Assembly (NCBI GenBank): GCA_963835045.1
Contig: CAWIDW010000005.1
Location: forward strand, 63,210 to 127,209
Direction of reading: 5' to 3'
Length of the DNA stretch: 64,000 bases
Origin: an uncultured bacterium
Lineage (GTDB): Bacteria; Patescibacteriota; Minisyncoccia; Minisyncoccales; Staskawiczbacteraceae
The notes below the pieces were generated by a model. The model saw nothing but the letters and a program-made list of their open reading frames with translations, was not told where the DNA came from and did not search any database. The translations under genes and the position numbers were made by a program. Numbering within the stretch: the first letter of the stretch is position 1; every line of letters begins with the position of its first letter. Positions 1 to 23,046 of the stretch are shown here, in pieces.

Positions 1-92
1 CTCGGTCGGTTGCTTTTTCTGGTGTTGGTTCATTTTCCATAAACCTATTATACATAAATTTGTAAAAATCCCAAAATCGGGTTAAAGTGAAG

Positions 93-130
93 CCAATATA
101 GCGGTTCTAACTGCTTCTAACGCCCACTGC
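93..130 (+). repeat. 38-nt repeat, copy 1 (left island boundary)
   Basis: ccaatatagcggttctaactgcttctaacgcccactgc; 36/38 identical to copy at 4480-4517. Confidence 0.9.
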
Positions 131-163
131 AATTTATTGTGCGACAAGTTATTTTAATTTTAT

Positions 164-209
164 AAAAAAAGAGCCGAGTTGCACCAGGGGTGTTTTCTCG
201 GCTTTTTGA
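164..209. terminator. Bidirectional rho-independent terminator
   Basis: Stem agccgag (172-178) / ctcggct (197-203), flanked by an A-run upstream and a T-run downstream. Lies just past the stop of the minus-strand gene ending at 245. Confidence 0.6.
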
Positions 210-244
210 GTTTATTTGAGACTTGCGAATCTTTCGCGAAGTCC

Positions 245-1300
245 TTATCTCGCCTTAGGACGTTCGGCAGTTAAGATCGCCTTGAAGGACGTGAGAGGTT
301 CGTCACGACGCCAAGCATTCCATGCTTGGATTGACCAGCGAAACATTTTCTCTGGTTCGACTGATTTGCTTTGTGAGCGCTTGCCCTTTGAGCTGTCAAT
401 ACTCAGCTTGCAGGTCATTAGTTGGTTGCGGAGTTTGAGGCGAGGATCGTTCTTGCTGGCCATTCCCGTACCCTCGCGAACTGAGTCCCAAAAATCTGCC
501 GAAGGTTTAACCACTTTTTCAAAGGTGGTAAACATGGCGCCGATTACCGGTGACCGCCGCATCCAATCTACCGAGCTGATGGAAAAAGTGCTAAGGTAGG
601 CGACTACGGTGTTGACCAAGTTGGCATCTTCGCCTTGCATTAAGAATGCGATCTCATCCCCATCGTGTCGTTTGCGTTCGCTGGAATTGTCCCATTTGTA
701 AAAACTGAAGCCGTCGCTCATTGTCTTGATGTCGGTTGGCTTGAGGCTTTTAAACTGGTTTGTCCCAGCCAAATGGGCGGTGATGACATTGGACTTGGTT
801 CGAGGGGTACCCCGGTCTATCGTGGCGTACAAGAGTCGCATATCTTCACTGGTCTTGGCTCTGTATTTTGCCAAGACCACTTTTCCTGGGCATTCGTACT
901 CGCTTGGCATGTAAATCCTGGCCCAGGAGGTATGCTGACCGTTCATACGAAACTCAGTGCCACCGGGATAGTCATCAACTTTTTCTTCGCAAACACAGGT
1001 CATGAGACGAACGAGCTCGGGTCGAAACGTTCCTTGTTTCATGCATCGGTTAAGGTAGGTAACGTGGCCGTCACGGAGAGGTCGCTCGCCGATGAATTTG
1101 GGATGTTCAAGCATTTCCCTTGACAGTTTTTCTGTCAGATCGACTTTGCGTTCCTGTTCAAGGACGACTCCTCTGCCCAGGGACGTAACGTCCAACACTT
1201 CAGCTTCTGTGGGAACTAATCCCGAGAAACGCTTCGAAGTTGTGAAAGTTTCGTCCATCTCGAAAGCGTGGTTGGCGTCGGGTGTTGTGTTCACGGTCAT
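245..1300 (-). CDS. ParB/sulfiredoxin-fold (DGQHR/DndB-like) domain protein
   Basis: ORF 245..1348; start set to ATG 1300 because AAGGAG lies 7 nt upstream. ERPLRDGHVTYLNRCMKQGTF ... FRMNGQHTSWA fits the ParB/Srx N-terminal pattern (..DGQHR..A). GC-richer than flanks. Confidence 0.5.
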   Translation of the reverse strand: MTVNTTPDANHAFEMDETFTTSKRFSGLVPTEAEVLDVTSLGRGVVLEQERKVDLTEKLSREMLEHPKFIGERPLRDGHVTYLNRCMKQGTFRPELVRLMTCVCEEKVDDYPGGTEFRMNGQHTSWARIYMPSEYECPGKVVLAKYRAKTSEDMRLLYATIDRGTPRTKSNVITAHLAGTNQFKSLKPTDIKTMSDGFSFYKWDNSSERKRHDGDEIAFLMQGEDANLVNTVVAYLSTFSISSVDWMRRSPVIGAMFTTFEKVVKPSADFWDSVREGTGMASKNDPRLKLRNQLMTCKLSIDSSKGKRSQSKSVEPEKMFRWSIQAWNAWRRDEPLTSFKAILTAERPKAR

Positions 1301-1425
1301 GATTTGACTCCTTGTTATCAAAGGGCTTGTGCGTCTTTTGAGAATCAATCCGCGAACATACGCGATTTGATATAGAGGAATAGACGCGCTTCCTAGTAGG
1401 TCGATATTATCATATATAATTACTT

Positions 1426-1442
1426 TGTCAATAGTATTGACA
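1426..1442. promoter_or_regulatory. Perfect 8-1-8 palindrome (candidate operator) overlapping the -35 box
   Basis: tgtcaata g tattgaca, exact inverted repeat in the divergent intergenic region. Confidence 0.6.
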
Positions 1443-1466
1443 TAAATATATAATATATGTTAGAAT
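1437..1466 (+). promoter_or_regulatory. Sigma70-like promoter of the island operon
   Basis: TTGACA (1437-1442), 18-nt spacer, TAGAAT (1461-1466). Confidence 0.55.
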
Positions 1467-1567
1467 CAAAAATCAGTTAACGAAAGCAATTTTGAATTGC
1501 TTCTTAATTGTCGATCGTCGCCCTTTAACAATCAGAGGTGAGTCTATTATCGAAAGGAGGTATTTTC

Positions 1568-1870
1568 ATGACCAAGCCACAAGAAACCGCTCACACTAGC
1601 AGTGGTGTCATTCGAGCAGTCGTGGGTAAGGTCAGAGGCGAAGGTCAACATCGGTTTGCCATCGCCTATCTTGAGAAAGGAGCCACACATCCCACTATCA
1701 GTCAAAGGGAGAGCATCACATTCTCTCTTACTGACTGGCAAGGTGAACGAGAGCCACGAAAAGAGCAGGTTGTTCTGCTTGAAGGAGTTCAATTGTTTGC
1801 CAGAGGTTGGCGAGCTATTGTCGCTCGTCCGATTACTCTGGAGTCACAAGCCACAAGAAAGGAACAGTAG
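1568..1870 (+). CDS. Hypothetical 100-aa protein, first gene of island operon
   Basis: ATG 1568 preceded by GAAAGGAGG; stop lies 2 nt before the next start. Confidence 0.5.
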   Translation: MTKPQETAHTSSGVIRAVVGKVRGEGQHRFAIAYLEKGATHPTISQRESITFSLTDWQGEREPRKEQVVLLEGVQLFARGWRAIVARPITLESQATRKEQ

Positions 1871-1872
1871 TC

Positions 1873-2646
1873 ATGGTGAAAGTTTTTACCGGTACTACTC
1901 AAGAGTGTCTTGAGCACTTTTCCCAGGGGAATCGCTTCAATACTCCTGAGAGAGAAGCATGCAAACTGCGAAATGCAGTTTCCGAGTTTTTTGGCATTAA
2001 CCATCAAACTGGATACGGATGGTTCAGTCAGTTTCGTCTCCCAACCGGAGAGAATCTTTTACGACTTCGATTTTTTCTGTCTCTGTTAGGCTACGAAGTC
2101 GTGGAAAGAAATGTCGTACCGAAAATTCTTCGTGAGTTTTCCGACATGGTTTGCCTTCGCACACTTTCGTTTGAGGAGGCAGCTTATCTTATTGGTGGCA
2201 CCGCTGTACCAGCCGTTTTATTGGATGTGTCATTTGGTCGCTACGGCGTCTCCGGCGAGAGGGAAGAAAAGATTACCGAACTGGTAGAACTCTACAAAAA
2301 GGAAGCTACCGTCAAGCTTGAAGAGTGGAAAACCAAGATTGAATCATTCGGTCTTGCCAATTTCTCCGCTATCAAAATAGTGCCCGCACAAACACCCGAG
2401 TCTTCTAAGGAAGATTCAAAACCGGTGCTTGCTCGGTTAAATGGCGAGGTTGTCAAGACCTTGGCCCACCTGATTCTGGCGATTAAACCCTGGGCAGAAT
2501 TGCTTCTTTCAGAGGAGTTTTCTCCTGAACAGCGACAGCAACTTCGTGAGTTGACTGCCACCAACGGACGTTCAAACGCGGTGTTCGAAGTGTCCAACGC
2601 TCTTAATCGCCTGTGTAGCGAAAGGGCACGTAAGGAAATTCAGTAG
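1873..2646 (+). CDS. Hypothetical protein with two XRE-like helix-turn-helix segments
   Basis: ATG 1873 directly after the upstream stop. AVSEFFGINHQTGYGWFSQFRLPTGENLLRL and LSFEEAAYLIGGTAVPAVLLDVSFG look like HTH motifs (by eye only). Confidence 0.45.
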   Translation: MVKVFTGTTQECLEHFSQGNRFNTPEREACKLRNAVSEFFGINHQTGYGWFSQFRLPTGENLLRLRFFLSLLGYEVVERNVVPKILREFSDMVCLRTLSFEEAAYLIGGTAVPAVLLDVSFGRYGVSGEREEKITELVELYKKEATVKLEEWKTKIESFGLANFSAIKIVPAQTPESSKEDSKPVLARLNGEVVKTLAHLILAIKPWAELLLSEEFSPEQRQQLRELTATNGRSNAVFEVSNALNRLCSERARKEIQ

Positions 2647-2675
2647 CCACAAGCCACAAGAAAGGAACGGTGTCT

Positions 2676-4385
2676 ATGAGTACTACAACTGCTCGGATCG
2701 ATTTTCACAAGGGTGAAACCCTGCTGAACTTGGCGAACACCTATCCCAAGCTCAGCGATGTTCTCTTGGAGCTGGTCCAGAATGCGTTGGACGAAAAAGC
2801 CAACAGAATCTGGATCGAGGTTGACTACAAAAACCGCAAGGCGCACGTACAAGACAACGGCCAGGGAGCTTCGATTGATAAGTTCAACGGCGCTCTGGGG
2901 TCGGTTGCCAAACCCGGTCGCAAGGAAAAGGGGAGTCTTGGCCAGTTTGGCATAGGACTCATCTCTCCTCTCGGCAAGTGCAAAAAGTTCTTCTTCGTTT
3001 CCTGTCCCCAACCCCATGATTCACTCTACCAAGAGTGGCTTCTGGAAACCGATCACATTAAAGCTCAGCAGCACGACATTTCCATTCCCACGAAAGTTCG
3101 CCAGGACATCATTTTTGAAAAGAAAGTGCCTGGCAAAAACAGCGTGGATTGGAGGTCGCGGGCCCAGCTGATTGATTTCACTGAAGATCAATTTGTCAGT
3201 CAACTTTCCATGGATGGATTGGTCGGCGGCATACAGGATCGGTATTCAGGAGTCATGCGCAAAAACAACGTGGTGATTTCTGTGGTGATCAAGGATGAAA
3301 AAGGCAAAAAACATCAACGGGACAATGTGACGGCACTCGAGTTTCTGGGTCGCAAACTCCTGGAACAAGAATTGCTTGATTCGGGCGGAGGCAAAGTTCT
3401 TTTCCGTTTGTTCATTGCCAAGAAAATTGGCAAGGGACGACAACGGCAGGGCAAAGTATCGATGGGGGTAATGGGAAACGATTTCCGATTTCCTTTCGAA
3501 TACTTTGCACGATCAGCAGCCTCGCTTCTGAAACCCGACGTGGTTGACGCGCTGTCAAAAGGTCTTTTCGAAGGAGAAATTCTTTCCGAAAAGGCCAGAC
3601 TTCACCGAGATCGCCAGACTTTTGAGAAGGATGATAACTGGATTGGCTTGTGCATTGCCATTGAAGAGTGGTTTGATAAGTTCGGCAGGGAGCACACCAA
3701 AGAAGCGCAACAGTCAAACGAGGACGAGCGCCACCAGGAACTGGGTCTTCGATCCATGAAAGTGGTGGAGGACATGCTCAGGGACCCATCAAGCGCCTCG
3801 TTACTGGCGGTTCTCAAATCGTTTGAACGGGGAACTGTTGGTAGTGGACACACTGATGTTCCTGCTAGCAAAGTCTACGGTCAGCAGGATGAAAAGGCTT
3901 TGTCGGTGGATGGTAATGTGGGTGAATCGAAATCGAAAAAGGATGATGGCGAACCCCCCCCAGACCCTACCAAACCTCCGGAGCACAAACCTGATCACAT
4001 GCCCCTTACAGTCGCTGGCCCCAAAGGCAAGCGCCGCAAGGAGGTTCGTGGTCATAGCACAGGCCTGGGGTTCGTGTACGATGCCATGGATGGCTCACCC
4101 GACCTTTGGAAACTAGATATCAAGAACGGACTCTTGCATTTTAATATCCGACATCCCTTGTGGATGGCTTGTGATAGTAAAAGTGACTTGGCGCTCATGA
4201 AGCTTCAGGAGCTCGTCACTATCCAGGCACTTACGCTTGAAATTATGCCAGAAGGATTGAGGCATTGTCAGCGTCAGGCGTTTGATGAACACAATGGGGC
4301 CATGGTTACATGGATCCTCAACAGTGACAAGGCGCGGGGAAGTATTCCCGCCGCCAAGAAGAAACCCGCAAAAACTAAGCCCTAA
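2676..4385 (+). CDS. GHKL-superfamily ATPase (HATPase_c_3 / MORC-Hsp90-MutL-like) with long C-terminal region
   Basis: N box LELVQNALDE, G1 box VQDNGQGAS and G2 box GQFGIGLIS within the first ~110 aa; 569 aa. Confidence 0.7.
   Translation: MSTTTARIDFHKGETLLNLANTYPKLSDVLLELVQNALDEKANRIWIEVDYKNRKAHVQDNGQGASIDKFNGALGSVAKPGRKEKGSLGQFGIGLISPLGKCKKFFFVSCPQPHDSLYQEWLLETDHIKAQQHDISIPTKVRQDIIFEKKVPGKNSVDWRSRAQLIDFTEDQFVSQLSMDGLVGGIQDRYSGVMRKNNVVISVVIKDEKGKKHQRDNVTALEFLGRKLLEQELLDSGGGKVLFRLFIAKKIGKGRQRQGKVSMGVMGNDFRFPFEYFARSAASLLKPDVVDALSKGLFEGEILSEKARLHRDRQTFEKDDNWIGLCIAIEEWFDKFGREHTKEAQQSNEDERHQELGLRSMKVVEDMLRDPSSASLLAVLKSFERGTVGSGHTDVPASKVYGQQDEKALSVDGNVGESKSKKDDGEPPPDPTKPPEHKPDHMPLTVAGPKGKRRKEVRGHSTGLGFVYDAMDGSPDLWKLDIKNGLLHFNIRHPLWMACDSKSDLALMKLQELVTIQALTLEIMPEGLRHCQRQAFDEHNGAMVTWILNSDKARGSIPAAKKKPAKTKP
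3954..3961 (+). repeat. Poly-C(8) homopolymer inside the GHKL ATPase CDS
   Basis: gaa cccccccc aga, encoding EPPPDP. Confidence 0.9.
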
Positions 4386-4404
4386 AAAAGCTCGGTCAAT
4401 CAAA

Positions 4405-4441
4405 CCCCGGTATCATAGTAATATGGCACCGGGGCTTTTTC
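4405..4441 (+). terminator. Rho-independent terminator after island operon
   Basis: Stem ccccggt (4405-4411) / accgggg (4428-4434) followed by cttttt. Confidence 0.6.
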
Positions 4442-4479
4442 TTTGCATTGAAAATTGCCGAAAAAATGCTACACTGATA

Positions 4480-4517
4480 CCAATAAAGTGGTTCTAACTG
4501 CTTCTAACGCCCACTGC
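4480..4517 (+). repeat. 38-nt repeat, copy 2 (right island boundary)
   Basis: ccaataaagtggttctaactgcttctaacgcccactgc. Confidence 0.9.
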
Positions 4518-4619
4518 CGGGTATCATTCGGCATCCGGCTTCGCCCACAGGCGGAGTCGGTGGCACGAATGGGAGCCGAGCCAGGCGCGGTCTTGTGCCT
4601 GGCCAGGTCGCAAATTACC

Positions 4620-4847
4620 ATGAAATTCTATGATGTGTACGTCTTGCGCAATAAATTAAAAAATTTTATCTATGTTGGTTATTCTGAAAATCTGAAAGAG
4701 AGAATTCAATATCACAATGGTGGTTATGTGAAATCAACAAAATTTTACATCCCGCTAGAACTTATTCATTACAAAGCGTATCGAAATATAACGGACGCAA
4801 AAAGAAGAGAAGTCTGCGCCTTGTTGCGTCCGCAGACTATCACATAA
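4620..4847 (+). CDS. Small GIY-YIG (URI-domain) nuclease family protein, atypical C-terminus
   Basis: MKFYDVYVLRNKLKNFIYVGYSENLKERIQYHNGG matches the GIY..YIG..R..N pattern. The usual ..KRREKYLKSG.. tail is replaced by AKRREVCALLRPQTIT. Confidence 0.6.
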   Translation: MKFYDVYVLRNKLKNFIYVGYSENLKERIQYHNGGYVKSTKFYIPLELIHYKAYRNITDAKRREVCALLRPQTIT

Positions 4848-4851
4848 AAAA

Positions 4852-4896
4852 ACAACCTCTTTGTGCATGGTGCATGGAGAGGTTGTCTGTTTTTTT
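4852..4896. terminator. Rho-independent terminator (usable from both sides)
   Basis: Stem acaacctct (4852-4860) / agaggttgt (4878-4886), followed by a T7 run and preceded by an A-run. Confidence 0.65.
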
Positions 4897-4911
4897 GGGG
4901 GGGTAAAAGAG

Positions 4912-5040
4912 CTACTTGTTAAAAAAGGAATACCAGATCCATGCCAGCAAAGCTCCAAGGCCAATTGATACGGGGAGGCCATATAATAGGCCACGGAAAA
5001 GAGCTAAATTTTTCTCTTCCAGTTCGTCCTCGGGTTTCAT
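4912..5040 (-). CDS. 42-aa small membrane protein (not in ORF track)
   Basis: ATG at 5040 preceded by GAGGAG. Translation MKPEDELEEKNLALFRGLLYGLPVSIGLGALLAWIWYSFFNK has one clear TM helix. Confidence 0.35.
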   Translation of the reverse strand: MKPEDELEEKNLALFRGLLYGLPVSIGLGALLAWIWYSFFNK

Positions 5041-5199
5041 GCTTTTCTCCTCTTGGTCATGGTTAAAAACAATACCTTGACTATATATTACATAAGTTTT
5101 TAAAAAATACCAGCCCCGTATGCAAGTTTATTCACAATTGCAACTTGTAATCTTGCCTGGGGTTTTGTATTATAAATAATAAGTTCTGTTTTGGCAACA

Positions 5200-7122
5200 A
5201 TGCTAAAGACCATGAAAAAATACTTTCAAAAATCATTCAATAAAAACCAGTTCGTTTTTCTAAAAATATTACTGGTGGCCTGTTGTGTTACCGTCGCCGG
5301 TTTGTATACTCATTCCATTGCCTATGCTGGGAGTATCACCCCGTCCGATTCTCCGTCCAACGACATGTATACCATGGAACAAGTCTACCAACAGCTCCAC
5401 AGCGGCACAACTACTTCTTCTCCATCCGGATCATTCATTGAGCCTAGTTCGTCTCCGGCTCCAACCATGCACACGCTCAGCGATGTATACAATGGCTTTG
5501 CTACTGACGTTGCAGCCACCAGCGGCACCGCCCCATCAAGCGTGCTTTCAGGAAATACCTTTTTTGACACCGCCGGAACTACTCGAGGCACCACCTTTGG
5601 TCCCGTCGCAGGTACTATGGCCAACAACGGCAGTTTCGCTTTGACCTGCAGCGCCACCAATCAATCGGTTACTGCTGGATACTACACTGGTGGCACGTTG
5701 ACCGGCGATGTGAATCTTGTTACTGGTAACATTAAAAATGGTGCGACTATATTCGGAGTTAGTGGTAGCTCTAAAGTTCTTGACACCACTGCCGGCACGG
5801 CAACAAATGGAGAAGTTTTATCCGGCGATATTTGCTACTCCAATGGTTCAACGATTACCGGCACCATAGCCACCGGATCCAACGTCACCGGTTCCAACGG
5901 CTCGCTTTCCTTCAGCATTCCCACTGGATACTATTCGGGCAACACCTGTACGGCCAGCGACACTAATTTAGCAACCGGCAATATAAAAAGCGGCACCACC
6001 ATCTTCGGTGTGGCCGGCAGCAGTAAGGTCTTAGACACCACCTCAGGCACCGCAGTAGCAGCCAATCTAATCTCCGGCAAGGTGGCCTATTCTAACGGAT
6101 CAACAATCACCGGCACCATGCCGGATCAGACAGGATTGAATGTCGCTTCCACCGCTCAGTCCCAGTCCAGCGGAGTCAACTACTTTACCGCTGCCCAGGG
6201 TTACTACGACGGCACCGCCAAGGTTTCCGCCACCGATGCCCAGGTAGCGGCGTTGAGCGCTTCCCTTACGGCAGGGCATGTGGCATCGGGAACCACCATC
6301 TTCGGAGTTGCCGGCACCGGCAACCTGGTTACCGGCACCGGCACGGGAAGCGCCGCGGCCGCCGGCCAGATCCTTACCAACTATTATGCCTGGGGTTCCA
6401 CAGGTTCAGTTATCCAGGGTTCGGTAGCCACCGGCTCCAACGTCACCGGTTCCAATAGCTCGCTCTCCTTTTCCATCCCCACCGGATATTATTCGGGCAA
6501 CACGTGCACGGCCAGCGACACTAACCTGGTGGCGGGAAACATCGATACAGGGGTAAGTATTTTTGGAGTAAGCGGCACACTGTTAGCCAATGAATTTAAC
6601 GGCACCAGCGGTTCTTTTACCGGCGGCAGCCAGGCCAACGGCGGAGCGGATGATTACAATAATGGCTCCGCCTCTCCAGGCAACACTTATTCCACTACCT
6701 GGACCACCTGCAATTCCGGGAACAGCTACTGCGGCACCAGTGACAGTGGGGCGGCAATGAAAGATAATGCCACCGGCAAGATCTGGAGTTATCCTTGCAA
6801 TGGCTCCGCCTGCGCCACTTTTTCCAACAGTTCTCCCGCCACCTATTCCTGGGACAATTCTGGCGCCAATAACAGCAGTAACACCGCCAGCCAGCTTTGC
6901 TCCGGCCACGCGGGCTGGTCTTTACCGCACCAAAAACAGCTAATGCAAGCCTATATCGACGGTTCCTACGGCAACCTAGAAGGCACTGGCGTCGCTCGCT
7001 ACTACTGGTCTGCGACGACTGTCTCCAACAGTACCTCCAACGCGTGGTACACCAACCTGTCTAACGGCAGCACCACCAACGCTGGCAAGACTAATGCTCT
7101 CTACGTTCGTTGCGTGCGCTAG
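5200..7122 (+). CDS. Secreted repeat protein with C-terminal DUF1566 / C-type-lectin-like domain; candidate DGR target
   Basis: N-terminal signal/TM segment and three internal ~60-aa repeats (..GSNVTGSNGSLSFSIPTGYYSGNTCTASDTNL..). C-terminus GWSLPHQKQLMQAY...YYWSATTVSNSTSNAWYTNLSNGSTTNAGKTNALYVRCVR matches the DUF1566 pattern. Start 5200 or 5212 is uncertain. Confidence 0.7.
   Translation: MLKTMKKYFQKSFNKNQFVFLKILLVACCVTVAGLYTHSIAYAGSITPSDSPSNDMYTMEQVYQQLHSGTTTSSPSGSFIEPSSSPAPTMHTLSDVYNGFATDVAATSGTAPSSVLSGNTFFDTAGTTRGTTFGPVAGTMANNGSFALTCSATNQSVTAGYYTGGTLTGDVNLVTGNIKNGATIFGVSGSSKVLDTTAGTATNGEVLSGDICYSNGSTITGTIATGSNVTGSNGSLSFSIPTGYYSGNTCTASDTNLATGNIKSGTTIFGVAGSSKVLDTTSGTAVAANLISGKVAYSNGSTITGTMPDQTGLNVASTAQSQSSGVNYFTAAQGYYDGTAKVSATDAQVAALSASLTAGHVASGTTIFGVAGTGNLVTGTGTGSAAAAGQILTNYYAWGSTGSVIQGSVATGSNVTGSNSSLSFSIPTGYYSGNTCTASDTNLVAGNIDTGVSIFGVSGTLLANEFNGTSGSFTGGSQANGGADDYNNGSASPGNTYSTTWTTCNSGNSYCGTSDSGAAMKDNATGKIWSYPCNGSACATFSNSSPATYSWDNSGANNSSNTASQLCSGHAGWSLPHQKQLMQAYIDGSYGNLEGTGVARYYWSATTVSNSTSNAWYTNLSNGSTTNAGKTNALYVRCVR
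6995..7119 (+). other. Candidate DGR variable region (VR) at the extreme 3' end of the target gene
   Basis: Position and ..YWS..AW..G..K..YVRCVR scaffold are typical of DUF1566-type VRs. No matching template repeat found in the window. Confidence 0.35.
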
Positions 7123-8423
7123 CCCTGGGAATGGAACATTAATTTTTTACCCGGCTCACTGGTTCGCCTCGGTTTCCGAAATTGCTTTTTTATCAAAAAG
7201 CACCTCATATTTATATCTTTGGGCTCCAGGTATTTTTTAAGACGCTGAAAGCGTTTTTCCCATAAATGGTTCCTTAATTTATAGGTATTGGCATGACCAA
7301 AATGGCCGTAATAGGAATTAACGGTAGCGAGCATTTTTTGGAGCAGTTCGGGCGGTGGCTGGTATTTTGTAAAAATAAATTCCAACTGTCCGTGGTCGGT
7401 TGCGGAATTTGAATATTTTTGCAAAGTGTTATTGAAATGAAAGAGTTTATTTTTAAAAGTTTTAACAATCCTTTGGCGGATTAAAACGTCGTCGGGTTTG
7501 ACGATATAGCCGAGCCAGTCAATGCCAAGGTCGGTTGTTTGAAGGATTTCCTTATTGGGATTTAGTTCCAGCTTTAGCCGTTCTTTGAGAAATATGTTTA
7601 TTTTGTTTCGCCATTCCAATAATTCGCTTTTGCTGCTGGCGAGGAGCAGGAAATCGTCAACATAACGCAGGTAATATTTGATTTTTAACGTGTGTTTTAC
7701 GAATTGATCAAGTTCACTAAGGTAAACATTGGCAAAAAATTGGCTGGTAAGATTTCCGATGGGCAAACCCTGACCTTTAGAAACGTGAAACAATGATTTA
7801 TGGGGCGGAATTTTGGCAAAAAGCGCCCGATTGCCTTTACTGGTAAAGTTTTCTGTCGGATTGTTGAAAATAATCAGCTTGGACAACCAGAGGATTTCCG
7901 GATTGGCCACATATTTATTTATGAGATCAAAAAGAATGTCCTTTTTCAAACTCATGAAAAATCCGCGGATATCAAGGTGGAGATAAAATGCTTGACGGCG
8001 ATGATTTGCGGTGATCTTGCCAAGATATTTTTGCAAATCATGCAAGGATCGGTGGATACCCTTGTCCTTGCGGCAGGCATAGGATTGTGCAATGAACATT
8101 GGTTCAAAAACCGGTTCCAATAAATTGTAAAGCACATGGTGAACGACCCGATCCCGAAAGGTGGCTGCAAAAACCTCGCGCAATGACGGTTCTTCCACGA
8201 CAAAACAAATCGAGCGGCCGATCGTATAGCTGTGTCTTTGCAACTCCCGTTCCAGTTTCAGAAGTTCCGATTCAAAATGTATTTCAAATTTTGCCGCGTG
8301 ATACGTTTTACGTTTGTACTCCCGACAGTCCAAATAGGCCCGGTAAAGGTTTTTAAAACTGTAAATATTACAACCACCCTTTTCTCGGTTTTGTGTGGTT
8401 ATATGTGTGTACAAGTTTTTCAA
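7119..8423 (-). CDS. DGR-type reverse transcriptase
   Basis: FRDRVVHHVLYNLLEPVFEP, LPIGNLTSQFFANVYL (the [ILV]GxxxSQ motif characteristic of DGR RTs) and YLRYVDDFLLL (YxDD). Its stop overlaps the target gene stop by 4 nt (ctag). Confidence 0.8.
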   Translation of the reverse strand: MKNLYTHITTQNREKGGCNIYSFKNLYRAYLDCREYKRKTYHAAKFEIHFESELLKLERELQRHSYTIGRSICFVVEEPSLREVFAATFRDRVVHHVLYNLLEPVFEPMFIAQSYACRKDKGIHRSLHDLQKYLGKITANHRRQAFYLHLDIRGFFMSLKKDILFDLINKYVANPEILWLSKLIIFNNPTENFTSKGNRALFAKIPPHKSLFHVSKGQGLPIGNLTSQFFANVYLSELDQFVKHTLKIKYYLRYVDDFLLLASSKSELLEWRNKINIFLKERLKLELNPNKEILQTTDLGIDWLGYIVKPDDVLIRQRIVKTFKNKLFHFNNTLQKYSNSATDHGQLEFIFTKYQPPPELLQKMLATVNSYYGHFGHANTYKLRNHLWEKRFQRLKKYLEPKDINMRCFLIKKQFRKPRRTSEPGKKLMFHSQG

Positions 8424-8453
8424 TTATTTGTGTTATAATCTGTAAATACCAGT

Positions 8454-10172
8454 ATGAAACAAAAGATAATATTTAAAAGTTTAATTTTTATTATTACAGC
8501 GTTTTTTATAAACAGCGTTTTTTTGTCTTTGGCTTTCGCCGCCAGCAACACTACCGGCTACGCCTGGTCGGAATCTTCCGGTTGGATAAACTTCAATCCT
8601 TCCGGCCAAAATACACAGGTGGCAAGCACTGAGCTTACTGGCTACGCCTATGGAGAAAACACCGGCTGGATATCATTGAATTGCCTAAACGATACTTCCT
8701 GTGCCACCGTTAACTATGGGGTGGTCAATGATGGACAAGGCAACCTTTCGGGCTACGCCTGGTCACAATCTGCGGGCTGGATAAATTTTAATCCAACCAA
8801 CGGCGGAGTAAAAATCAGCAGCCAGGGTGTTTTTTCCGGCTACGCCTACGGCGAAAACACTGGTTGGATTTCTTTTAATTGTACCAACGACAATTCCTGC
8901 GCCACCGTAAGTTACGGCATCACCACCACCTGGAGCCCGTCAAGTTCCGCCCCTGCTCCTACCCCCGCTCCCGTCACTTCCGGCAGCGGAGGCGTTTCAC
9001 TTTTAATAGGAATCCAAAGTCATCCCTCAACTCCGCCTACCCCGAGTGTTCCTCCTAATCCTCCTTATGTAGCCCCTCCTGTCATTGCCGCCCTTCCTCC
9101 CTTCGCCCAAGACGTAGCCTTCTTTGCCCAAAGGATTCCACAGTTTAACCAGGCGCTCAAGAATGTTGGCATTAATGTTACCAAATTGACCGATATCAAA
9201 AGGGTTGCCTCCGTCCACTGGTTTTTGCCCGGTCTGACACAACTGGCAGTTTCTTCCAAGGCAACTTCAAAAACTCCCGCGCCTCCCGTGACCAAGGGAG
9301 TTCCGGTGGCGCAATTGACCTCCAGTCAAAAGAAAAGTATCCCTGATGATATCGTCTTCGTTAAAACCAGTGCGGGAACGGTAGACTACGCCACCAATCT
9401 TTCTTTTGACCAGCAAGGCAAGGGGATTCAGCAAGTTTCTACTATTGCCAACAAGCCGCTAGAGCTGGTTATCAAACCTGATCACCCCGTCACCTCCATT
9501 CAAGGATTTTTAACTTTGACAAAATTAGATGTCTCCCAGGCTCCTTCTACAAATTCTGTGGCTTCAGCTCCCTCTAGCTCCCAATCCATCGCCGAGCTCA
9601 TCACTCACTATCTTACTGCTTCTATTTCAGACTACCGCAACACCCAAATTAATCAGCCGCTCTCTCAAGCCGATCCTTCGCTGCTGGTTCAGAAATTTAC
9701 CTACCAAAATATGGGCAACGGTATTTACCAAGCTAGTATTACTGCTCCTTCCGCTGAAGGTCAATACGAAGTGGTGACTTCCATTTATTACCAGGGCAAA
9801 ACCCTCCCACAGCAAGAGACCCGACTGACCATCGTGGTGGATCCGGAGGGATATGTGTATACCAATGTTCCCGAAGGCCAGGTGAGAATTAAATCAGCTG
9901 CTGTTTCTCTTTACTGGCTCAACCCTGCTTCGGGCAAGCAACAGATCTGGCCGGCTTCCCAATTCTTACAACAAAACCCCCAAACTACGGATGTCACCGG
10001 ACGATACGCGTTTTTGGTCCCTCCCGGCACCTACCAGCTTAGGGTTTTAGCAAATAACTACCAAAACTACACTTCAGCTCCACTGGTAATCCAGGAGGAC
10101 AACAATGTTGTAATGGATGTCCAACTGATCGCCAAGAAGAAAAACTTGCTGCAGCAATTGTTGGGGAAGTAG
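8454..10172 (+). CDS. Secreted protein with GYAWSxxxGWINFN repeats and C-terminal carboxypeptidase-regulatory-like domain
   Basis: Signal peptide; four copies of G-Y-A-[WY]-[SG]-E-x-x-G-W-I-[NS]-[FL]-N; Pro-rich linker; C-terminal TDVTGRYAFLVPPGTYQLRV. Confidence 0.6.
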   Translation: MKQKIIFKSLIFIITAFFINSVFLSLAFAASNTTGYAWSESSGWINFNPSGQNTQVASTELTGYAYGENTGWISLNCLNDTSCATVNYGVVNDGQGNLSGYAWSQSAGWINFNPTNGGVKISSQGVFSGYAYGENTGWISFNCTNDNSCATVSYGITTTWSPSSSAPAPTPAPVTSGSGGVSLLIGIQSHPSTPPTPSVPPNPPYVAPPVIAALPPFAQDVAFFAQRIPQFNQALKNVGINVTKLTDIKRVASVHWFLPGLTQLAVSSKATSKTPAPPVTKGVPVAQLTSSQKKSIPDDIVFVKTSAGTVDYATNLSFDQQGKGIQQVSTIANKPLELVIKPDHPVTSIQGFLTLTKLDVSQAPSTNSVASAPSSSQSIAELITHYLTASISDYRNTQINQPLSQADPSLLVQKFTYQNMGNGIYQASITAPSAEGQYEVVTSIYYQGKTLPQQETRLTIVVDPEGYVYTNVPEGQVRIKSAAVSLYWLNPASGKQQIWPASQFLQQNPQTTDVTGRYAFLVPPGTYQLRVLANNYQNYTSAPLVIQEDNNVVMDVQLIAKKKNLLQQLLGK

Positions 10173-10383
10173 GATGCATAATAGAACAGCGAAAGAAATT
10201 AAACAGTTTGCAGGGGGGGTAATTTCAGAGATTTCACCAAACTGGAAACTCATATCAGGTTTTTGTAGACATAAAAAGGACGGACATACGAAATATCCGT
10301 CCCAAGTTTAGTGTCTTCATTATAGCAGTTAACGAGGCCGTGTCAATAGGGCTGAAAATGGCCTTTGGAATACTAAACCTAGG

Positions 10384-10420
10384 CCAATAAAGTGGTTTTA
10401 ATAGCTTTCAAAGCCCGCAG
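10384..10420 (+). repeat. 38-nt repeat, diverged copy 3
   Basis: ccaataaagtggttttaatagctttcaaagcccgcag; the first 14 nt are identical to copy 2, then ~9 substitutions. Confidence 0.6.
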
Positions 10421-10426
10421 TCTCGT

Positions 10427-11620
10427 GTGTTAACAGGGGCAAAGCTCTTGTTTTTTTGTTTTATTATTTTTATCTGGTTCTTTTTAATCTTTGGGGTATT
10501 TGATACAATGAGCGAAGTTCGTTGGGTGATAGGTTTTTTAATAACAACATCGTTGGGTGTTATGGTATCTATAAAACGGCAGTATGTTTTTAGGTTTTTA
10601 ATCGGGGTGATTTTTTTGATGGCGGCGGTGTATTATTGGCCGGCGTATCAGCGCCAGATTCCAAAGACCCGCCAAGAGTCTCAATACCAAGCTTCAACTG
10701 AAATACTTCAGACGCCGTTGCAGGCTCCTTTGACATTGGTGACCGAACCGGATGATGGTATGGCGATGGTAAAAAACCAGATAGACGGGGCCTTTAAAAC
10801 CTTGGACTTGGTTGTGTATGAATTTGAAGATCCCGAGCTTGAGCAAGCCTTAGTTGATGCAAAAAACCGCGGCGTTTTGGTGCGGGTTATTTTACAAAAT
10901 TTGGATTTTGCGGGCCAGCAAGTTAATCAGCCGGCGTACGATTTTTTAAAAAGCCATGGCGTGGCGGTGATGTGGGCGCAAGATTATTTTCCCTTAACTC
11001 ATCAAAAAACCTTAACCATAGACGGGGCGCGCTCTTTAATTATGACCTGTAATCTGGATACCCAATTTTATGCTTCAAGCCGGGATTTTATTGTAGTTGA
11101 TAGTAATCCAGACGATGTGGCTGCCATATCGGCGGCTTTTTTGTCGGATTGGAGCGGAGCGCAAGAGACGCCAGGCAATGGCCAGGATTTGGTGTGGAGT
11201 CCAGCGTCGGCTGATACTTTGTTGGCGTTAATTAATGCCAGTCAAACGTCGCTGGATATTTACAACGAAGAAATGGCCGACCCCAGAATCATTGAGGCTC
11301 TCAAGGAAGCGGCAAAAAGGGGAGTGGCGGTGAGAGTTGCCATGACTTACAACACCAGTTGGAAAGATGCTTTCAATGAATTAACATCGGCCGGCGTGAG
11401 CGTTCATACCTATGCTTCAACGTCCCGCCATTATATCCATGCCAAAGTCATGGTGGCGGATTTTCAACGGGCGTTTGTGGGTTCGCAAAATTTTTCTTTG
11501 CAATCGCTGGATTTAAATCGGGAACTTGGCATTTTAATTTCCCGCAGCGATATTGTTTCTTCCTTGGAAACAACGTTTGCCAATGATTGGCTTTCGTCGC
11601 GGCCTTACGTTATCAAATAG
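10427..11620 (+). CDS. Phospholipase D family protein (two HKD motifs; cardiolipin-synthase/Nuc-like), membrane anchored
   Basis: HQKTLTID and HAKVMVAD HxKxxxxD motifs; N-terminal TM helices. Start is uncertain (GTG 10427 or ATG 10508). Confidence 0.75.
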   Translation: MLTGAKLLFFCFIIFIWFFLIFGVFDTMSEVRWVIGFLITTSLGVMVSIKRQYVFRFLIGVIFLMAAVYYWPAYQRQIPKTRQESQYQASTEILQTPLQAPLTLVTEPDDGMAMVKNQIDGAFKTLDLVVYEFEDPELEQALVDAKNRGVLVRVILQNLDFAGQQVNQPAYDFLKSHGVAVMWAQDYFPLTHQKTLTIDGARSLIMTCNLDTQFYASSRDFIVVDSNPDDVAAISAAFLSDWSGAQETPGNGQDLVWSPASADTLLALINASQTSLDIYNEEMADPRIIEALKEAAKRGVAVRVAMTYNTSWKDAFNELTSAGVSVHTYASTSRHYIHAKVMVADFQRAFVGSQNFSLQSLDLNRELGILISRSDIVSSLETTFANDWLSSRPYVIK

Positions 11621-17735: not shown

Positions 17736-17822
17736 GAAAATAGAAAATAGAAATATAGAAAATAGAATCGCGACGTCACGTTACGTATTCTATATTTCTA
17801 TTTTCTATATTTCTACTTTCTC
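17736..17822. repeat. Intergenic low-complexity imperfect palindrome, family B copy 1 (AAATAGAAA arms, CGACGTCACGTT core)
   Basis: Arms gaaaatagaaaatagaaatatagaaaatagaat / attctatatttctattttctatatttctactttctc; core cgcgacgtcacgttacgt. Confidence 0.85.
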
Positions 17823-17827
17823 ACGTT

Positions 17828-18331
17828 ATGGCATTAACTAAAGAGAAAAAACAGCATGCTTTGGCCGATATTAAAGCCAATATTGCCAAGCAAAAGTCGG
17901 TGATTTTTTTGGATTTTTCCAAAGTAAATTCCAAAGATTTGTTTGCTTTTCGCAAGCAATTAAAAGAGCAGGGTTGCAACCTCAAGGTGGGGAAAAAAAC
18001 GTTGATTCGAGTGGCTTTTGGACAATCGGGGATTTCGTTTTGGAACAAAATCAAAAGCGCCATTCCCGGACAATTAGCCTTGGTATTTGGCATGGAAGAC
18101 GAAGTAGCTCCGGCCAGAATTGCCAATCAATTTGCCAAAACCAACGAAAATTTTAAAATCTTGGGAGGCATTTTTGAGAAAAGATTCATTGACCGCGAGC
18201 GAGCCTTGGTATTGGCAAACTTACCAAGCCGAAACGAATTGTTGAGCCGATTGGTTGGTTCGCTATCCAGCTCCACGGCCAATTTTGTGCGAGTACTGGA
18301 TAAGATTAGAGAAAGCAAAGAAAAAAATTAA
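17828..18331 (+). CDS. rplJ: 50S ribosomal protein L10
   Basis: Typical L10 N-terminus and position upstream of rplL. Confidence 0.9.
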
Positions 18332-18335
18332 AACT

Positions 18336-18407
18336 CGTAACCCGTAACCAGGAACCCGTAACCGGTACATTAAAGTACGCGTTACTGGTTACCCGTTACC
18401 GGTTACC
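18336..18407. repeat. Intergenic imperfect palindrome, family C copy 1 (GTAACCGGTAAC arms)
   Basis: cgtaacccgtaaccaggaacccgtaaccggtac..gtacgcgttactggttacccgttaccggttaccc, between rplJ and rplL. Confidence 0.85.
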
Positions 18408-20061: not shown

Positions 20062-20460
20062 ATGCCTACCAATTACTACAAAATCTCCTGGACACAGCAC
20101 TCCCAAGCGAAGATGCGCCAGTACGGATTTTCAACTACCAAGCTCCTCAATGTCCTGCGCAAACCCGAGCGAACCGAACAGGGAATTGCACAAGGAACGC
20201 TGGCCGTGATGCAAACCAAAAAAGTATTTGGCAACAAAAAATTGGTCACCGATTCTGTAAAACCCTTCTATTCTGCCAGCATCAAAAAAGCTCCGGGCGA
20301 AATTTGGCTGATGTATAAAGACGATGCCAAAAAAGGCACTCGAACCATTATTAGCGCCTGGAGATATCCTGGAGTTTCAAAGCCCGGAGAACCGGTACCG
20401 ATTCCGGAAGAAATTCGCAAAGAGCTGCTGGGAGAATCTAATTTGAAATTTACAATTTGA
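20062..20460 (+). CDS. Hypothetical 132-aa protein
   Basis: ATG 20062 downstream of an extended -10 (tgctagaat). The upstream part of track ORF 19843.. spans a terminator and is rejected. The last 7 codons lie in a family-A repeat. Confidence 0.5.
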   Translation: MPTNYYKISWTQHSQAKMRQYGFSTTKLLNVLRKPERTEQGIAQGTLAVMQTKKVFGNKKLVTDSVKPFYSASIKKAPGEIWLMYKDDAKKGTRTIISAWRYPGVSKPGEPVPIPEEIRKELLGESNLKFTI

Positions 20461-20551
20461 AATTTGAAATGATTAAAATCGTCACATTTTCAAATTAACC
20501 TATTTACGTATTTCAAATTGATTTCAAATTGTAAATTTAAAATTTCAAATT
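20440..20551. repeat. Intergenic imperfect palindrome, family A copy 1 (AATTTGAAATTT arms)
   Basis: aatttgaaatttacaatttgaaatttgaaatgattaaaatcgtcacattttcaaatt...atttcaaattgtaaatttaaaatttcaaatt. Confidence 0.85.
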
Positions 20552-20557
20552 AAAATC

Positions 20558-20890
20558 ATGGATACAACTAATTTAAATCGAATAATCGGTTATATATTAT
20601 TGGCAGTGGGATTACTTTTAATAGCTACTCCACTGTATCAAACCTACAATATTTTTGTGGGCAAATCTTTGCCGGCGCAGGTGTTTCATGCGGCGCCAGT
20701 GGCCTCATCTGCTGCCCAAGCCAACAATCCGTTTGATATCCAGCAGCAAATGCAAAAAGCCCTAGTAGCCATTTTACCCATTGATTTAATTAATAACACG
20801 TTGAATTTGGGAAGCTGGGTTATTTTGCTTGGCATTTTAATGTACGGCGGGGGACAAATTGCCAACCTGGGAGTAAAATTGGTAAAATAA
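20558..20890 (+). CDS. Hypothetical membrane protein
   Basis: Two TM helices flanking a short hydrophilic loop. Confidence 0.5.
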   Translation: MDTTNLNRIIGYILLAVGLLLIATPLYQTYNIFVGKSLPAQVFHAAPVASSAAQANNPFDIQQQMQKALVAILPIDLINNTLNLGSWVILLGILMYGGGQIANLGVKLVK

Positions 20891-21479: not shown

Positions 21480-21515
21480 AGAAAGCACGTTTTCTGTTGA
21501 TAACTTTAACTTAGA

Positions 21516-21622
21516 ATCTTGAATTTAGGAGCTAGGAGCTTGAATGGAATAGATGAATAGAGAATTTTGAATTCAATATTCTCAATTCTATTCTAACTTC
21601 CAGCTACTAGCTTCCAGATTCA
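21516..21622. repeat. Intergenic imperfect palindrome, family D copy 1
   Basis: ~107 bp. About 88% identical by eye to the reverse complement of 52035-52141. Confidence 0.85.
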
Positions 21623-22077: not shown

Positions 22078-22974
22078 ATGACCCATAAACCCGTATTGCC
22101 TCGTGAAGTGTTAGAATATTTGGATCCCAAGCCCGGAGAAAATTTTATTGACGGAACGCTGGGACAGGGTGGACACACCTTATTGATACTAGAAAAAACA
22201 AAACCTGATGGCAAGGTACTGGGAATTGATGCCGACAGTGAGCAGATAGCAAGCAGTAAAACCATATTAAAAAATGTTACAGATCGGGTGACGTTGGTGC
22301 ATGATTCGTATCGCAATATCAAACAGATTGTTGAGCAAAGCGGAATGGTGGCACATGGAATCTTGATAGATTTGGGATATTCTTCCTGGCATATTGATGA
22401 AGCCAACAAAGGATTTTCTTTTGCAAAGGATCAGGCATTGGATATGCGCTATGATGTCCGGGGTGAATTAACGGCAAAAAAAATCGTCAATGAATATTTG
22501 CAGCAAGAATTGGAAAAAATAATCAGCGAATACGGAGAAGAAAAATTTGCCCGGCAAATTGCTAAGAAAATCACTGAAGCCAGGAAAATAAAAAGCATTG
22601 AAAGCACCTTCCAGTTAAAAGAAATTATTCAGGAAGCGGTTGAGAGAAAATATAGGCAAAGTAATATTCATTGTGCGACACGAACCTTTCAAGCATTGCG
22701 TATCGCGGTAAATCACGAACTGGAGAATCTGACGGATTTTTTACCCGATGCTTTGGATGTCTTGCCAATTGGCGGCAGATTGGTGGTGATTTCTTTTCAT
22801 TCGCTGGAAGACCGAATTGTCAAACAATTTTTTAAACAAAAAGCCGATGAAGGCGTAATAAAACTGCTTACCAAAAAACCCGTCATGGCCAGTGATGAAG
22901 AAATAAAAGAAAATCCAAGAGCCAGGTCAGCAAAATTAAGAGCCATCGTAAAAAACGAGAAAATAGAAATATAG
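22078..22974 (+). CDS. rsmH: 16S rRNA (cytosine1402-N4)-methyltransferase RsmH
   Basis: HKPVL..E.L......DGT.G.GGH, DLG.SS.. and FHSLEDRIVK motifs. Confidence 0.9.
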   Translation: MTHKPVLPREVLEYLDPKPGENFIDGTLGQGGHTLLILEKTKPDGKVLGIDADSEQIASSKTILKNVTDRVTLVHDSYRNIKQIVEQSGMVAHGILIDLGYSSWHIDEANKGFSFAKDQALDMRYDVRGELTAKKIVNEYLQQELEKIISEYGEEKFARQIAKKITEARKIKSIESTFQLKEIIQEAVERKYRQSNIHCATRTFQALRIAVNHELENLTDFLPDALDVLPIGGRLVVISFHSLEDRIVKQFFKQKADEGVIKLLTKKPVMASDEEIKENPRARSAKLRAIVKNEKIEI

Positions 22975-23046
22975 AAAATAGAAATATAGAATACGCAACG
23001 TCGCTGTTCACATTCTATTTTCTATATTTCTACTTTCTACTTTCTC
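22957..23046. repeat. Intergenic imperfect palindrome, family B copy 2 (inverted relative to copy 1)
   Basis: Its left arm is the reverse complement of the copy 1 right arm, and vice versa. Overlaps the last 6 codons of rsmH. Confidence 0.85.

What the first reader, a model, noticed from the sequence alone, without database searches (positions are those of the whole stretch)
5200..8423. Diversity-generating retroelement: DGR-type RT tail-to-tail with a DUF1566/CLec-type surface protein, but no template repeat found
The minus-strand ORF 7119-8423 carries RT motifs. These include DRVVHH, LPIGNLTSQ (the [ILV]GxxxSQ motif that distinguishes DGR RTs from group II intron and retron RTs) and YVDD. 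It converges on, and overlaps by 4 nt, a secreted protein. That protein's last ~40 residues (YYWSATTVSNSTSNAWYTNLSNGSTTNAGKTNALYVRCVR) match the C-terminal DUF1566 / C-type-lectin-fold scaffold, a typical DGR variable region. A DGR also needs a template repeat (TR) of ~100-130 nt, near-identical to the VR except at adenines. Scanning every intergenic region and both strands around the RT by eye, I found no such sequence. There is also no Avd-like accessory gene. Either the TR lies outside this window (an unusual split architecture), the element is a relic with an intact RT, or my scan missed it.
Basis: partly seen in the sequence, partly recalled or inferred. Interest (0 to 1): 0.7.

Follow-up and report, generated by a model that had tools for sequence, protein, structure and literature searches.

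The report
Collapsed DGR: template and Avd deleted
This is the remnant of a protein-diversifying retroelement (DGR) in a probable CPR bacterium: the template repeat and its helper gene have been cut out, most likely by recombination between the element's two repeats, which leaves an intact reverse transcriptase beside a surface-protein gene whose variable tip is probably frozen.

Summary
ORF 7119-8423(-) is a DGR-clade reverse transcriptase (RT). It overlaps by 4 nt the stop of a 643-aa surface protein (5191-7122, +) with a DUF1566/Lcl_C C-terminus. The 64-kb window holds no template repeat (TR) and no Avd gene.

Comparison with 20 related loci (RT 48-71% identical) explains why. All 20 carry a bAvd gene. 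Eighteen have the layout target-VR, avd, TR, then a converging RT, with the TR close to or overlapping the RT stop. Their TR/VR mismatches fall almost only at TR adenines.

In the window a single repeat fills both slots. Its 5' side is the target gene. Its 3' side is the TR-type flank (GGGAATGG...CCCGGCTC) and the RT 3' end. The repeat itself is VR-like: A is kept at 15 of 29 mutable TR-adenine columns (TRs keep 26-29, VRs 11-19).

This is the expected product of an in-register VR x TR deletion that removed avd and one repeat copy, with the crossover near 7102-7128. The RT shows no decay (0 of 99 near-invariant positions changed), so the loss is recent or the RT is still used.

A second assembly confirms the junction. 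A TR/Avd elsewhere in the genome could not be tested. This is an ordinary DGR relic whose route of decay can be read from the sequence.

The parts
5191..7122 (+). DGR target gene: surface protein of 643 aa (a gene caller started it at 5212, giving 636 aa). It has an N-terminal hydrophobic signal or anchor, internal ~180-nt repeats, and a C-terminal Lcl_C/DUF1566 (CLec2-type) domain.
   Evidence: PF07603, 50.3 bits, residues 523-643. Its last 195 aa are 65% identical to the verified DGR target in L002, and it is 49% identical over 400 aa to the target in L006. No close homologue exists in the protein database; the next best is at most 52% identical.
6988..7128 (+). The single surviving repeat. 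It is VR-like in sequence but sits in the TR position relative to the RT. It carries the A-mutagenesis signature and includes the target's stop codon (TAG, 7120-7122).
   Evidence: It aligns colinearly with 13 TR/VR pairs of relatives. At the 29 mutable TR-adenine columns the window keeps A at 15, against 26-29 for TRs and 11-19 for VRs. It matches 58 of 59 conserved non-A columns.
7102..7128 (+). Inferred crossover interval of the VR x TR deletion. It runs from just after the last VR-type substitution (CTC at 7099-7101, where TRs have AAC) to just before the first TR-flank-specific base (about 7129, inside GGGAATGG).
   Evidence: This is an inference by analogy with relatives, because the window's own ancestral TR is not available.
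7123..7190 (+). TR-type 3' flank (CCCTGGGAATGGAACATTA...CCCGGCTCACTGGTTCGCC). By analogy it is the start of the spacer RNA that follows a TR. It lies antisense to the last ~23 codons of the RT.
   Evidence: GGGAATG follows the TR in the 11 aligned relatives of this target type (GGAAATG in L212). VR flanks instead read GGCAATGG plus GATTTGAT repeats, or are unrelated..
7119..8423 (-). DGR-clade reverse transcriptase of 434 aa (a gene caller started it at 8414, giving 431 aa). It is full length, with all motifs intact.
   Evidence: It is 37-46% identical to phage DGR RTs and 48-71% identical to RTs of 20 loci, all of which carry avd and 18 of which have verified TR/VR pairs. It deviates at 0 of 99 near-invariant columns in an alignment of 70 homologues.
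8454..10172 (+). Syntenic neighbour: a 572-aa surface protein with GYAWSE..GWINF repeats and a CarboxypepD_reg-like C-terminus, divergent from the RT. It is not shown to be part of the DGR mechanism.
   Evidence: A homologue (34-45% identical) sits in the same divergent position next to the RT in L212. Another homologue lies beside the target in L006-L009.

Best explanation
The locus is a collapsed DGR. Its ancestor had the layout shared by this RT clade: target gene with a VR at its 3' end, then avd, then the TR (all on one strand), with the RT converging from the other strand so that the TR's 3' flank overlaps the RT's 3' end. VR and TR are about 140-nt direct repeats. A homology-dependent deletion between them (recombination or replication slippage) removed avd, the avd promoter region and one repeat copy, about 0.75-1.9 kb in all. 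The crossover fell in the invariant GC-rich 3' block, around 7102-7128.

The product is a target gene whose already diversified VR is fused in register to the TR's downstream flank and to the RT's stop. With no TR and no Avd in cis, the VR is most likely frozen at its last variant and the RT is an orphan.

Shown: the anatomy, the TR-type flank, the VR-type repeat, the absence of TR and Avd in 64 kb, and the intact RT. Inferred: the deletion mechanism, the crossover interval and the present inactivity.
For: (1) All 20 distinct relatives with enough flanking sequence have bAvd. Eighteen have a TR/VR pair with 75-100% of mismatches at TR adenines, and the TR lies from 22 nt inside the RT's 3' end to about 380 nt beyond its stop (within about 110 nt in most)..

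(2) In the window the only repeat lies at that same distance from the RT. It is followed by GGGAATGGAACATTA...CCCGGCTC, which matches relatives' TR flanks and not their VR flanks.

(3) The repeat is VR-like: A at 15 of 29 mutable columns, and 58 of 59 non-A framework columns conserved. A-mutagenesis therefore acted on it before the loss.

(4) The junction is in register. In L138 the TAG stop lies inside the TR/VR homology, as it does in the window, so the deletion leaves the target ORF intact.

(5) There is no TR or Avd anywhere in the window.

(6) An independent Logan assembly of run ERR11630394 (L001, 5105 bp) is identical to window 6426-11530 and runs straight through the junction.

(7) In the BPP-1 DGR, bRT has no activity without Avd, and the upstream avd RNA segment is essential (bioRxiv 10.1101/2023.10.23.563531). 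Defective DGRs are common: more than half of candidates in one survey (PMC5758913).
Against: The RT shows no sign of relaxed selection (0 of 99 near-invariant positions changed). That fits a very recent deletion, but it fits continued use equally well.

The window's own ancestral TR and VR flank are unknown, so the crossover interval rests on relatives that are only 48-71% identical.

Only 64 kb of a 271-kb contig, and none of the rest of the genome, could be searched. Both collection scans for a remote TR were uninformative.

No read data were available, so an intact variant co-existing in the population cannot be excluded.
Confidence: 0.75

Rival explanations
1. The DGR is still active but split. 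A TR with its flanking RNA elements, and an avd gene, lie elsewhere in the genome (for example in a second, duplicated DGR), and this RT and/or this VR work with them in trans.
For: The RT is fully intact and conserved. About 10% of DGR-containing complete genomes carry more than one DGR (PMC5758913). One relative (L211) diversifies two VRs from one TR. The rest of the genome could not be searched.
Against: All 20 relatives keep avd, and 18 keep a TR, close to the RT's 3' end. The window's VR has lost its own 3' flank and carries the TR-type flank instead, which explains the missing parts as a deletion rather than a relocation. No other Lcl_C target, TR or Avd exists in 64 kb.
Confidence: 0.1
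2. The junction is an assembly artefact or represents only a subpopulation. The real genome, or part of the population, has the intact VR-avd-TR arrangement, and the assembler jumped from VR to TR through their shared 3' block.
For: VR and TR share roughly 25-35 identical bases at their 3' ends in relatives. Repeats of this kind can confuse de Bruijn graph assemblers.
Against: Two assemblies give the identical junction, with 0 mismatches over 5105 bp. The Logan contig continues unbroken through the junction, although it does break at a genuine internal repeat of the target gene (6426, inside repeat 6397-6577). A chimeric path would need k-mers that join VR-specific bases (7099-7101) to TR-flank-specific bases (about 7129 onward), and these exist only if real reads carry them. 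That argument is my inference from how such assemblers work. The two assemblies may rest on the same reads.
Confidence: 0.08
3. The single hybrid repeat acts as both template and target. The target mRNA reads through into the retained TR-type spacer, the RT copies it with adenine mutagenesis, and the cDNA homes back to the same repeat.
For: The downstream TR-type flank, including the invariant GGGAATG motif, and an intact RT are retained.
Against: There is no Avd in the window, and every relative has one. In BPP-1 the RT is inactive without Avd, and the upstream avd RNA segment is essential. Self-templating would progressively erase the adenines, yet the repeat keeps a typical VR share of them. 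No conserved RNA structure could be shown for the flank.
Confidence: 0.03

Closest known systems
CPR-type DGRs with converging RT (layout target-VR, avd, TR, then RT on the opposite strand), as in Candidatus Nomurabacteria RIFCSPHIGHO2_01_FULL_39 (P0017, loci L006-L009) and the other relatives fetched here; Architecture B of Wu et al. 2018 (PMC5758913)
   Same: Same RT clade (48-71% identity). Same target family (Lcl_C/DUF1566 C-terminus, 49-65% identity in the C-terminal domain). Same position of the repeat relative to the RT stop, and the same TR-type 3' flank motif. Same CarboxypepD_reg-like neighbour (L212, L006).
   Different: The window lacks avd and has one repeat where relatives have two. 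The VR is fused directly to the TR flank and the RT's 3' end.
Bordetella phage BPP-1 DGR (mtd-avd-TR-brt), the prototype
   Same: The RT is homologous (E=1.7e-37 to Brt, PDB 8ub7) and carries the DGR motif [ILV]GxxxSQ. The target has a C-terminal variable region. The closest relatives depend on Avd and show adenine-specific TR/VR differences.
   Different: In BPP-1 all parts lie on one strand and the target has the Mtd-type CLec fold. The window's RT is about 100 aa longer than Brt (328 aa), with an insertion between RT residues ~172 and 215 and a longer C-terminus. The window has no TR and no avd.
Legionella pneumophila DGR (LdtA target; category 'd', CLec2 VR class with DUF1566, PMC5758913)
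   Same: Target class: surface-exposed protein with the VR in a DUF1566-type C-terminal domain.
   Different: Different host lineage and cassette layout. The Legionella element is complete.
Inactivated or incomplete DGRs as reported in surveys (more than half of candidate DGRs discarded for stops, truncations or poor TR-VR matches; PMC5758913)
   Same: A DGR that has lost essential parts.
   Different: Here the route of loss can be read from the sequence: an in-register VR x TR deletion with the RT untouched. My three literature searches found no description of this route, but they were limited.

Membership tests
Diversity-generating retroelement (DGR) | Reverse transcriptase of the DGR clade, with the [ILV]GxxxSQ motif and YxDD | tested here: met
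   LPIGNLTSQ and YVDD are present. The best solved-structure match is BPP-1 Brt, E=1.7e-37, against 2.6e-13 for group II RTs. Of its 20 closest relatives with enough flank, all carry avd and 18 sit next to a verified TR/VR pair.
Diversity-generating retroelement (DGR) | A TR/VR repeat pair whose differences fall at TR adenines | tested here: not met
   The 64-kb window has no second copy. The rest of the genome cannot be tested with these tools.
Diversity-generating retroelement (DGR) | VR at the 3' end of a target gene, in a C-type-lectin-type (here DUF1566/Lcl_C) domain, carrying adenine-mutagenesis substitutions | tested here: met
   PF07603 above its cut-off. Against the family's TR consensus, the changes are confined to A sites: A at 15 of 29 mutable columns, and 58 of 59 non-A columns conserved. 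The fold itself was not modelled.
Diversity-generating retroelement (DGR) | Accessory gene avd (present in every relative of this clade examined) | tested here: not met
   tblastn best E 0.097. Avd HMM best E 0.44 over 780 ORFs, with controls at 2e-13 to 3e-50.
Diversity-generating retroelement (DGR) | Ongoing diversification (VR polymorphism in the population) | not testable with these tools
   No reads are available, and no near-identical target exists in the protein database (next best at most 52% identity).
Group II intron | Intron ribozyme RNA (domains I-VI) around the RT ORF, and an RT/maturase scoring above the family cut-off | tested here: not met
   Rfam at gathering thresholds finds only a tRNA and an L10 leader in the window. 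TIGR04416 scores 106 bits against a 300-bit cut-off.
Retron / defence-associated RTs (DRT, Abi) | Family-specific RT model above its cut-off; msr/msd RNA or effector partner | tested here: not met
   Retron St85 scores 58 bits against 235; Drt2, Drt3 and Drt4 and AbiA are all far below their cut-offs. The PADLOC DRT models score below the generic RT model.

The most novel reading that the evidence does not exclude
A one-repeat DGR. After the collapse, the hybrid repeat, which keeps the TR's downstream spacer and an uncorrupted RT, may still be reverse-transcribed and re-inserted into itself or supplied in trans. That would be Avd-independent, self-templated adenine mutagenesis of a surface protein.
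Probability: 0.04. Interest if true: 0.75.

Novelty: new member of a known kind. Interest (0 to 1): 0.3.

Why it matters
The locus is a clear natural example of how a DGR can be switched off. The element's own two repeats are a built-in deletion substrate. One recombination event removes the template and Avd, fixes the current variant of the surface protein, and leaves an intact orphan RT.

This has a practical consequence for genome surveys. An 'RT plus CLec target, no TR' call in this clade should be checked for a VR fused to a TR-type flank before a split or new architecture is proposed. It also gives a simple sequence signature for counting such collapses across genomes: a VR-like repeat followed by the TR flank motif.

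It does not change what is known about the DGR mechanism.

Tried and rejected
(1) The 110-nt inverted repeat 21513-21622 / 52035-52144 (87%) looked like a possible remote TR/VR pair. It is intergenic and its mismatches are not A-specific, so I rejected it.

(2) I scanned genome contigs with the VR written as 'this base or A' in IUPAC code. This was my design error, and the result says nothing about a TR.

(3) I scanned metagenome contigs with a better pattern (AAGAMWAAWNNWNNMTACGTTCGTTGCGTNCGC). It gave 0 hits and did not even find the VR itself, so the source genome is not in that collection and the scan is uninformative.

(4) An exact-protein look-up of the RT returned only a 5.1-kb Logan contig. 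The 271-kb source contig could not be read, so I could not walk beyond the window.

(5) I considered that the TAG stop (in place of CAG in L002) was a compensating nonsense mutation after the deletion. I dropped this because L138 has TAG at the same place in both its TR and its VR.

(6) RNAalifold on the TR-downstream flank of 8 relatives plus the window gave no consensus structure and no covariation (-1.6 kcal/mol). Whether the spacer RNA fold is retained therefore stays open.

(7) The target has no close homologue from which population variants could be read.

(8) PADLOC gave no hit for the three genes at 245-4385.

(9) The literature searches found no prior description of VR x TR deletion. 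The searches were narrow, so this absence is weak evidence.
Full report
**What is in the sequence.** ORF 7119-8423 on the minus strand (434 aa) and ORF 5191-7122 on the plus strand (643 aa) converge. They share the palindrome CTAG at 7119-7122, which carries both stop codons. The minus-strand protein contains FRDRVVHH, GLPIGNLTSQ and RYVDDF and matches Pfam RVT_1 at E=3e-19. Its best match among solved structures is 8ub7_A (E=1.7e-37), against 2.6e-13 for the best group II intron RT. A tblastn of the aligned 8ub7 segment shows that this chain is Brt of Bordetella phage BPP-1, the prototype DGR reverse transcriptase. Against phage genomes the protein is 37-46% identical to phage RTs, among them those of DGR-carrying Bordetella, Bacteroides and crAss-like phages. 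Group II intron, retron, DRT and Abi models all score far below their curated cut-offs, and Rfam finds no intron or other RNA family near it. The plus-strand protein has an N-terminal hydrophobic segment and a C-terminal Lcl_C/DUF1566 domain (PF07603, 50.3 bits, cut-off 34.9). This is the 'category d / CLec2' target class of DGRs, exemplified by Legionella LdtA (PMC5758913).

**No template repeat and no Avd in the window.** blastn with word size 7, using 6700-7140 as query, found nothing below E=0.07. An ungapped scan of both strands, in which every adenine of the candidate was a wildcard, gave background values (at most 87 of 123). A self-BLAST of the whole window found no repeat pair with A-biased mismatches. 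The one long remote pair, 21513-21622 / 52035-52144, is intergenic and its mismatches are not A-specific. tblastn with two relatives' Avd proteins (best E 0.097) and an Avd profile HMM run against all 780 stop-to-stop ORFs (best E 0.44; independent positive controls at 2e-13 to 3e-50) found no Avd.

**What relatives look like.** The RT has thousands of homologues. The named ones among the closest come from CPR bacteria (Nomurabacteria, Kaiserbacteria, Peregrinibacteria, Moranbacteria, Doudnabacteria). That the window is from a CPR bacterium is my inference from these names. I fetched 20 distinct loci with RTs 48-71% identical and enough flanking DNA.
- All 20 encode a bAvd homologue (PF22296).
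- Eighteen have a direct repeat pair of 100-166 nt. One copy (the TR) lies from 22 nt inside the RT's 3' end (L212) to about 380 nt beyond the RT stop (L210), and within about 110 nt in most loci. The other copy (the VR) is at the 3' end of an Lcl_C target gene.
- 75-100% of the mismatches in each pair fall at adenines of the RT-proximal copy.
- The other two (L140, L145) have avd, but the target is not within the available flank.

The clade's standard layout is therefore target-VR, avd, TR on one strand, with the RT converging from the other. A converging RT and target is normal for this clade. L212 also shares the window's divergent CarboxypepD_reg-like neighbour upstream of the RT.

**What happened in the window.** The window has one repeat, not two, and it fills both slots at once. 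Its 5' side is the target gene body. Its 3' side is the RT 3' end, at the distance where relatives keep their TR. Three pieces of sequence evidence bear on this.
- Flank type. The sequence after the repeat, TAGCCCTGGGAATGGAACATTAATTTTTTACCCGGCTCACTGGTTCGCC, matches relatives' TR flanks (for example TCGGGAATGGGAACATTATCATCTGGCTCTCCCGGCCC). GGGAATG follows the TR in the 11 aligned relatives of this target type (GGAAATG in L212). It does not match their VR flanks, which read TGAGGCAATGGTCTGATTTGATGATTGGATGATTTGAT or are unrelated.
- Repeat type. At the 29 alignment columns where relatives' TRs have A and their VRs vary, TRs keep A at 26-29, VRs at 11-19, and the window at 15. At 59 conserved non-A columns the window matches 58. 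Adenine-specific mutagenesis therefore acted on this copy in the past.
- Crossover position. The last VR-type change is CTC at 7099-7101, where TRs have AAC. The first TR-flank-specific base is near 7129. The exchange must lie in the invariant GC-rich block at about 7102-7128.

In L138 the TAG stop lies inside the TR/VR homology, as it does in the window, so such a deletion leaves the target ORF unchanged. Because of this I dropped an earlier idea that the stop was a later compensating mutation. A VR-type body fused in register to a TR-type flank, with avd and one repeat missing, is the expected product of a homology-dependent deletion (recombination or slippage) between the two direct repeats. 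Judged from VR-TR spacing in relatives, it removed about 0.75-1.9 kb.

**Is the junction real?** A Logan assembly of run ERR11630394 (L001, 5105 bp) is identical to window 6426-11530 and runs straight through the junction. It breaks only at a genuine internal repeat of the target gene. A chimeric assembly would need k-mers that link VR-specific bases to TR-flank-specific bases. I rate an artefact as unlikely, but only read mapping can settle it, and the two assemblies may rest on the same reads.

**How it most likely works now.** In the BPP-1 system the RT has no activity without Avd. The RNA must also carry an upstream avd segment as well as the downstream spacer (bioRxiv 10.1101/2023.10.23.563531). 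Avd is present in every relative examined. The window lacks the Avd protein, the upstream avd RNA segment and a separate TR. The best-supported reading is that diversification has stopped, that the target's ligand-binding tip is fixed at its last variant, and that the RT is an orphan.

One observation resists a simple 'old relic' picture. The RT is untouched: 0 deviations at 99 near-invariant positions in an alignment of 70 homologues, where other family members show 0-9, and its full length aligns with relatives. Either the deletion is recent, or the RT is still used.

**What could not be tested.** I could not look for a TR and avd elsewhere in the genome. The 271-kb source contig is not readable through the look-up tools. 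My first collection scan was badly designed and matched poly-A runs. The second showed that the source genome is not in the JGI collection. The target has no close homologue from which population variation could be read. An attempt to show a conserved spacer RNA fold in the TR flank gave nothing.

**Comparison and novelty.** This is a degenerate member of a known, abundant family of CPR DGRs. Defective DGRs are common; more than half of the candidates in one survey were discarded as defective or incomplete (PMC5758913). Less usual here is that the route of decay can be read directly from the sequence. It also shows that a DGR's own repeats are a built-in deletion substrate that can lock in a variant. 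I found no description of this route in three limited literature searches. I make no strong novelty claim.

**Verdict.** Confidences: collapse by VR x TR deletion, with no diversification in cis, 0.75. Trans-acting TR/Avd elsewhere, 0.10. Assembly artefact or subpopulation, 0.08. Self-templating, 0.03. Interest is 0.3.

Noticed in passing
window 62-130, 4449-4517, 10353-10416: Three direct copies of a ~64-67-nt repeat (core CCAATAnAGyGGTTyTAAywGCTTyyAAmGCCC; 72-79% identical overall; 0 matches expected by chance). They are absent from all other fetched loci. They bracket two gene blocks: 126-4448 (two unknown proteins plus a 571-aa HATPase_c_3 / MutL-like ATPase) and 4518-10352 (GIY-YIG, DGR target, RT, CarboxypepD_reg protein). 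The left 13 kb of the window also has higher GC (0.43-0.58, against about 0.42) and mixed gene orientation. These may be island or cassette boundaries.
   Followed up: partly
window 46904-46966 and 47151-47213: A perfect 63-nt direct repeat. The last 20 codons and stop of the MraY-like membrane protein ORF 45904-46965 are duplicated 247 nt downstream, in the spacer before ORF 47345-49516.
   Followed up: partly
window 20437-20560, 27597-27751, 32998-33147; also 26379-26422, 40563-40606: A family of AT-rich intergenic repeats (AATTTGAAATTTACAATTTGAAATTTGAAAT), mostly arranged as inverted pairs in gene spacers. It looks like a shared promoter/operator or a small mobile repeat.
   Followed up: no
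window 21513-21622 / 52035-52144; 17778-17822 / 22957-23001; 18320-18372 / 38207-38259: Long-range inverted repeat pairs in intergenic DNA: 110 nt at 87%, 45 nt at 96%, and 53 nt at 79%. They are not TR/VR-like, since their mismatches are not A-specific.
   Followed up: partly
window 10277-10346, minus strand: A perfect sigma-70 consensus (TTGACA, 16 nt, TG-TATAAT) at 10346-10319, followed at once by a terminator-like hairpin at 10303-10277. It lies between the CarboxypepD_reg gene and the third copy of the 64-nt repeat.
   Followed up: no
window 4455-4847 and L210 6847-7137: A small GIY-YIG gene lies just upstream of the target in the window; its real start is probably the ATG near 4617, and a strong terminator follows at 4852-4886. 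In relative L210 a 96-aa GIY-YIG gene, flanked by inverted repeats, is inserted between the target and avd. The two are only 29% identical (E=1e-5). GIY-YIG elements may be recurrent passengers at these loci.
   Followed up: partly
window 10427-11620: A two-domain PLD-like protein with an N-terminal membrane segment. It matches DrmC-type PLD nuclease models of PADLOC (E=3.5e-25), but no other DISARM genes are nearby.
   Followed up: no
L141, L142, L212 (avd); L211 3164-3329 and 5960-6125; L140, L145: Layout variants among relatives. In L141, L142 and L212 avd is inverted, on the RT strand. L211 has two VRs served by one TR, plus a second Avd-like gene. L140 and L145 have hairpin or MITE-like repeats after avd and no target within reach, so they may be other forms of DGR decay.
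   Followed up: partly
relatives, 5-15 nt downstream of each TR; window 7127-7133: The motif GGGAATG follows the TR in the aligned relatives of this target type (GGAAATG in L212) and is mostly absent after VRs. It is a candidate part of the template/primer or IMH* element of this DGR clade. No supporting RNA structure was found.
   Followed up: partly
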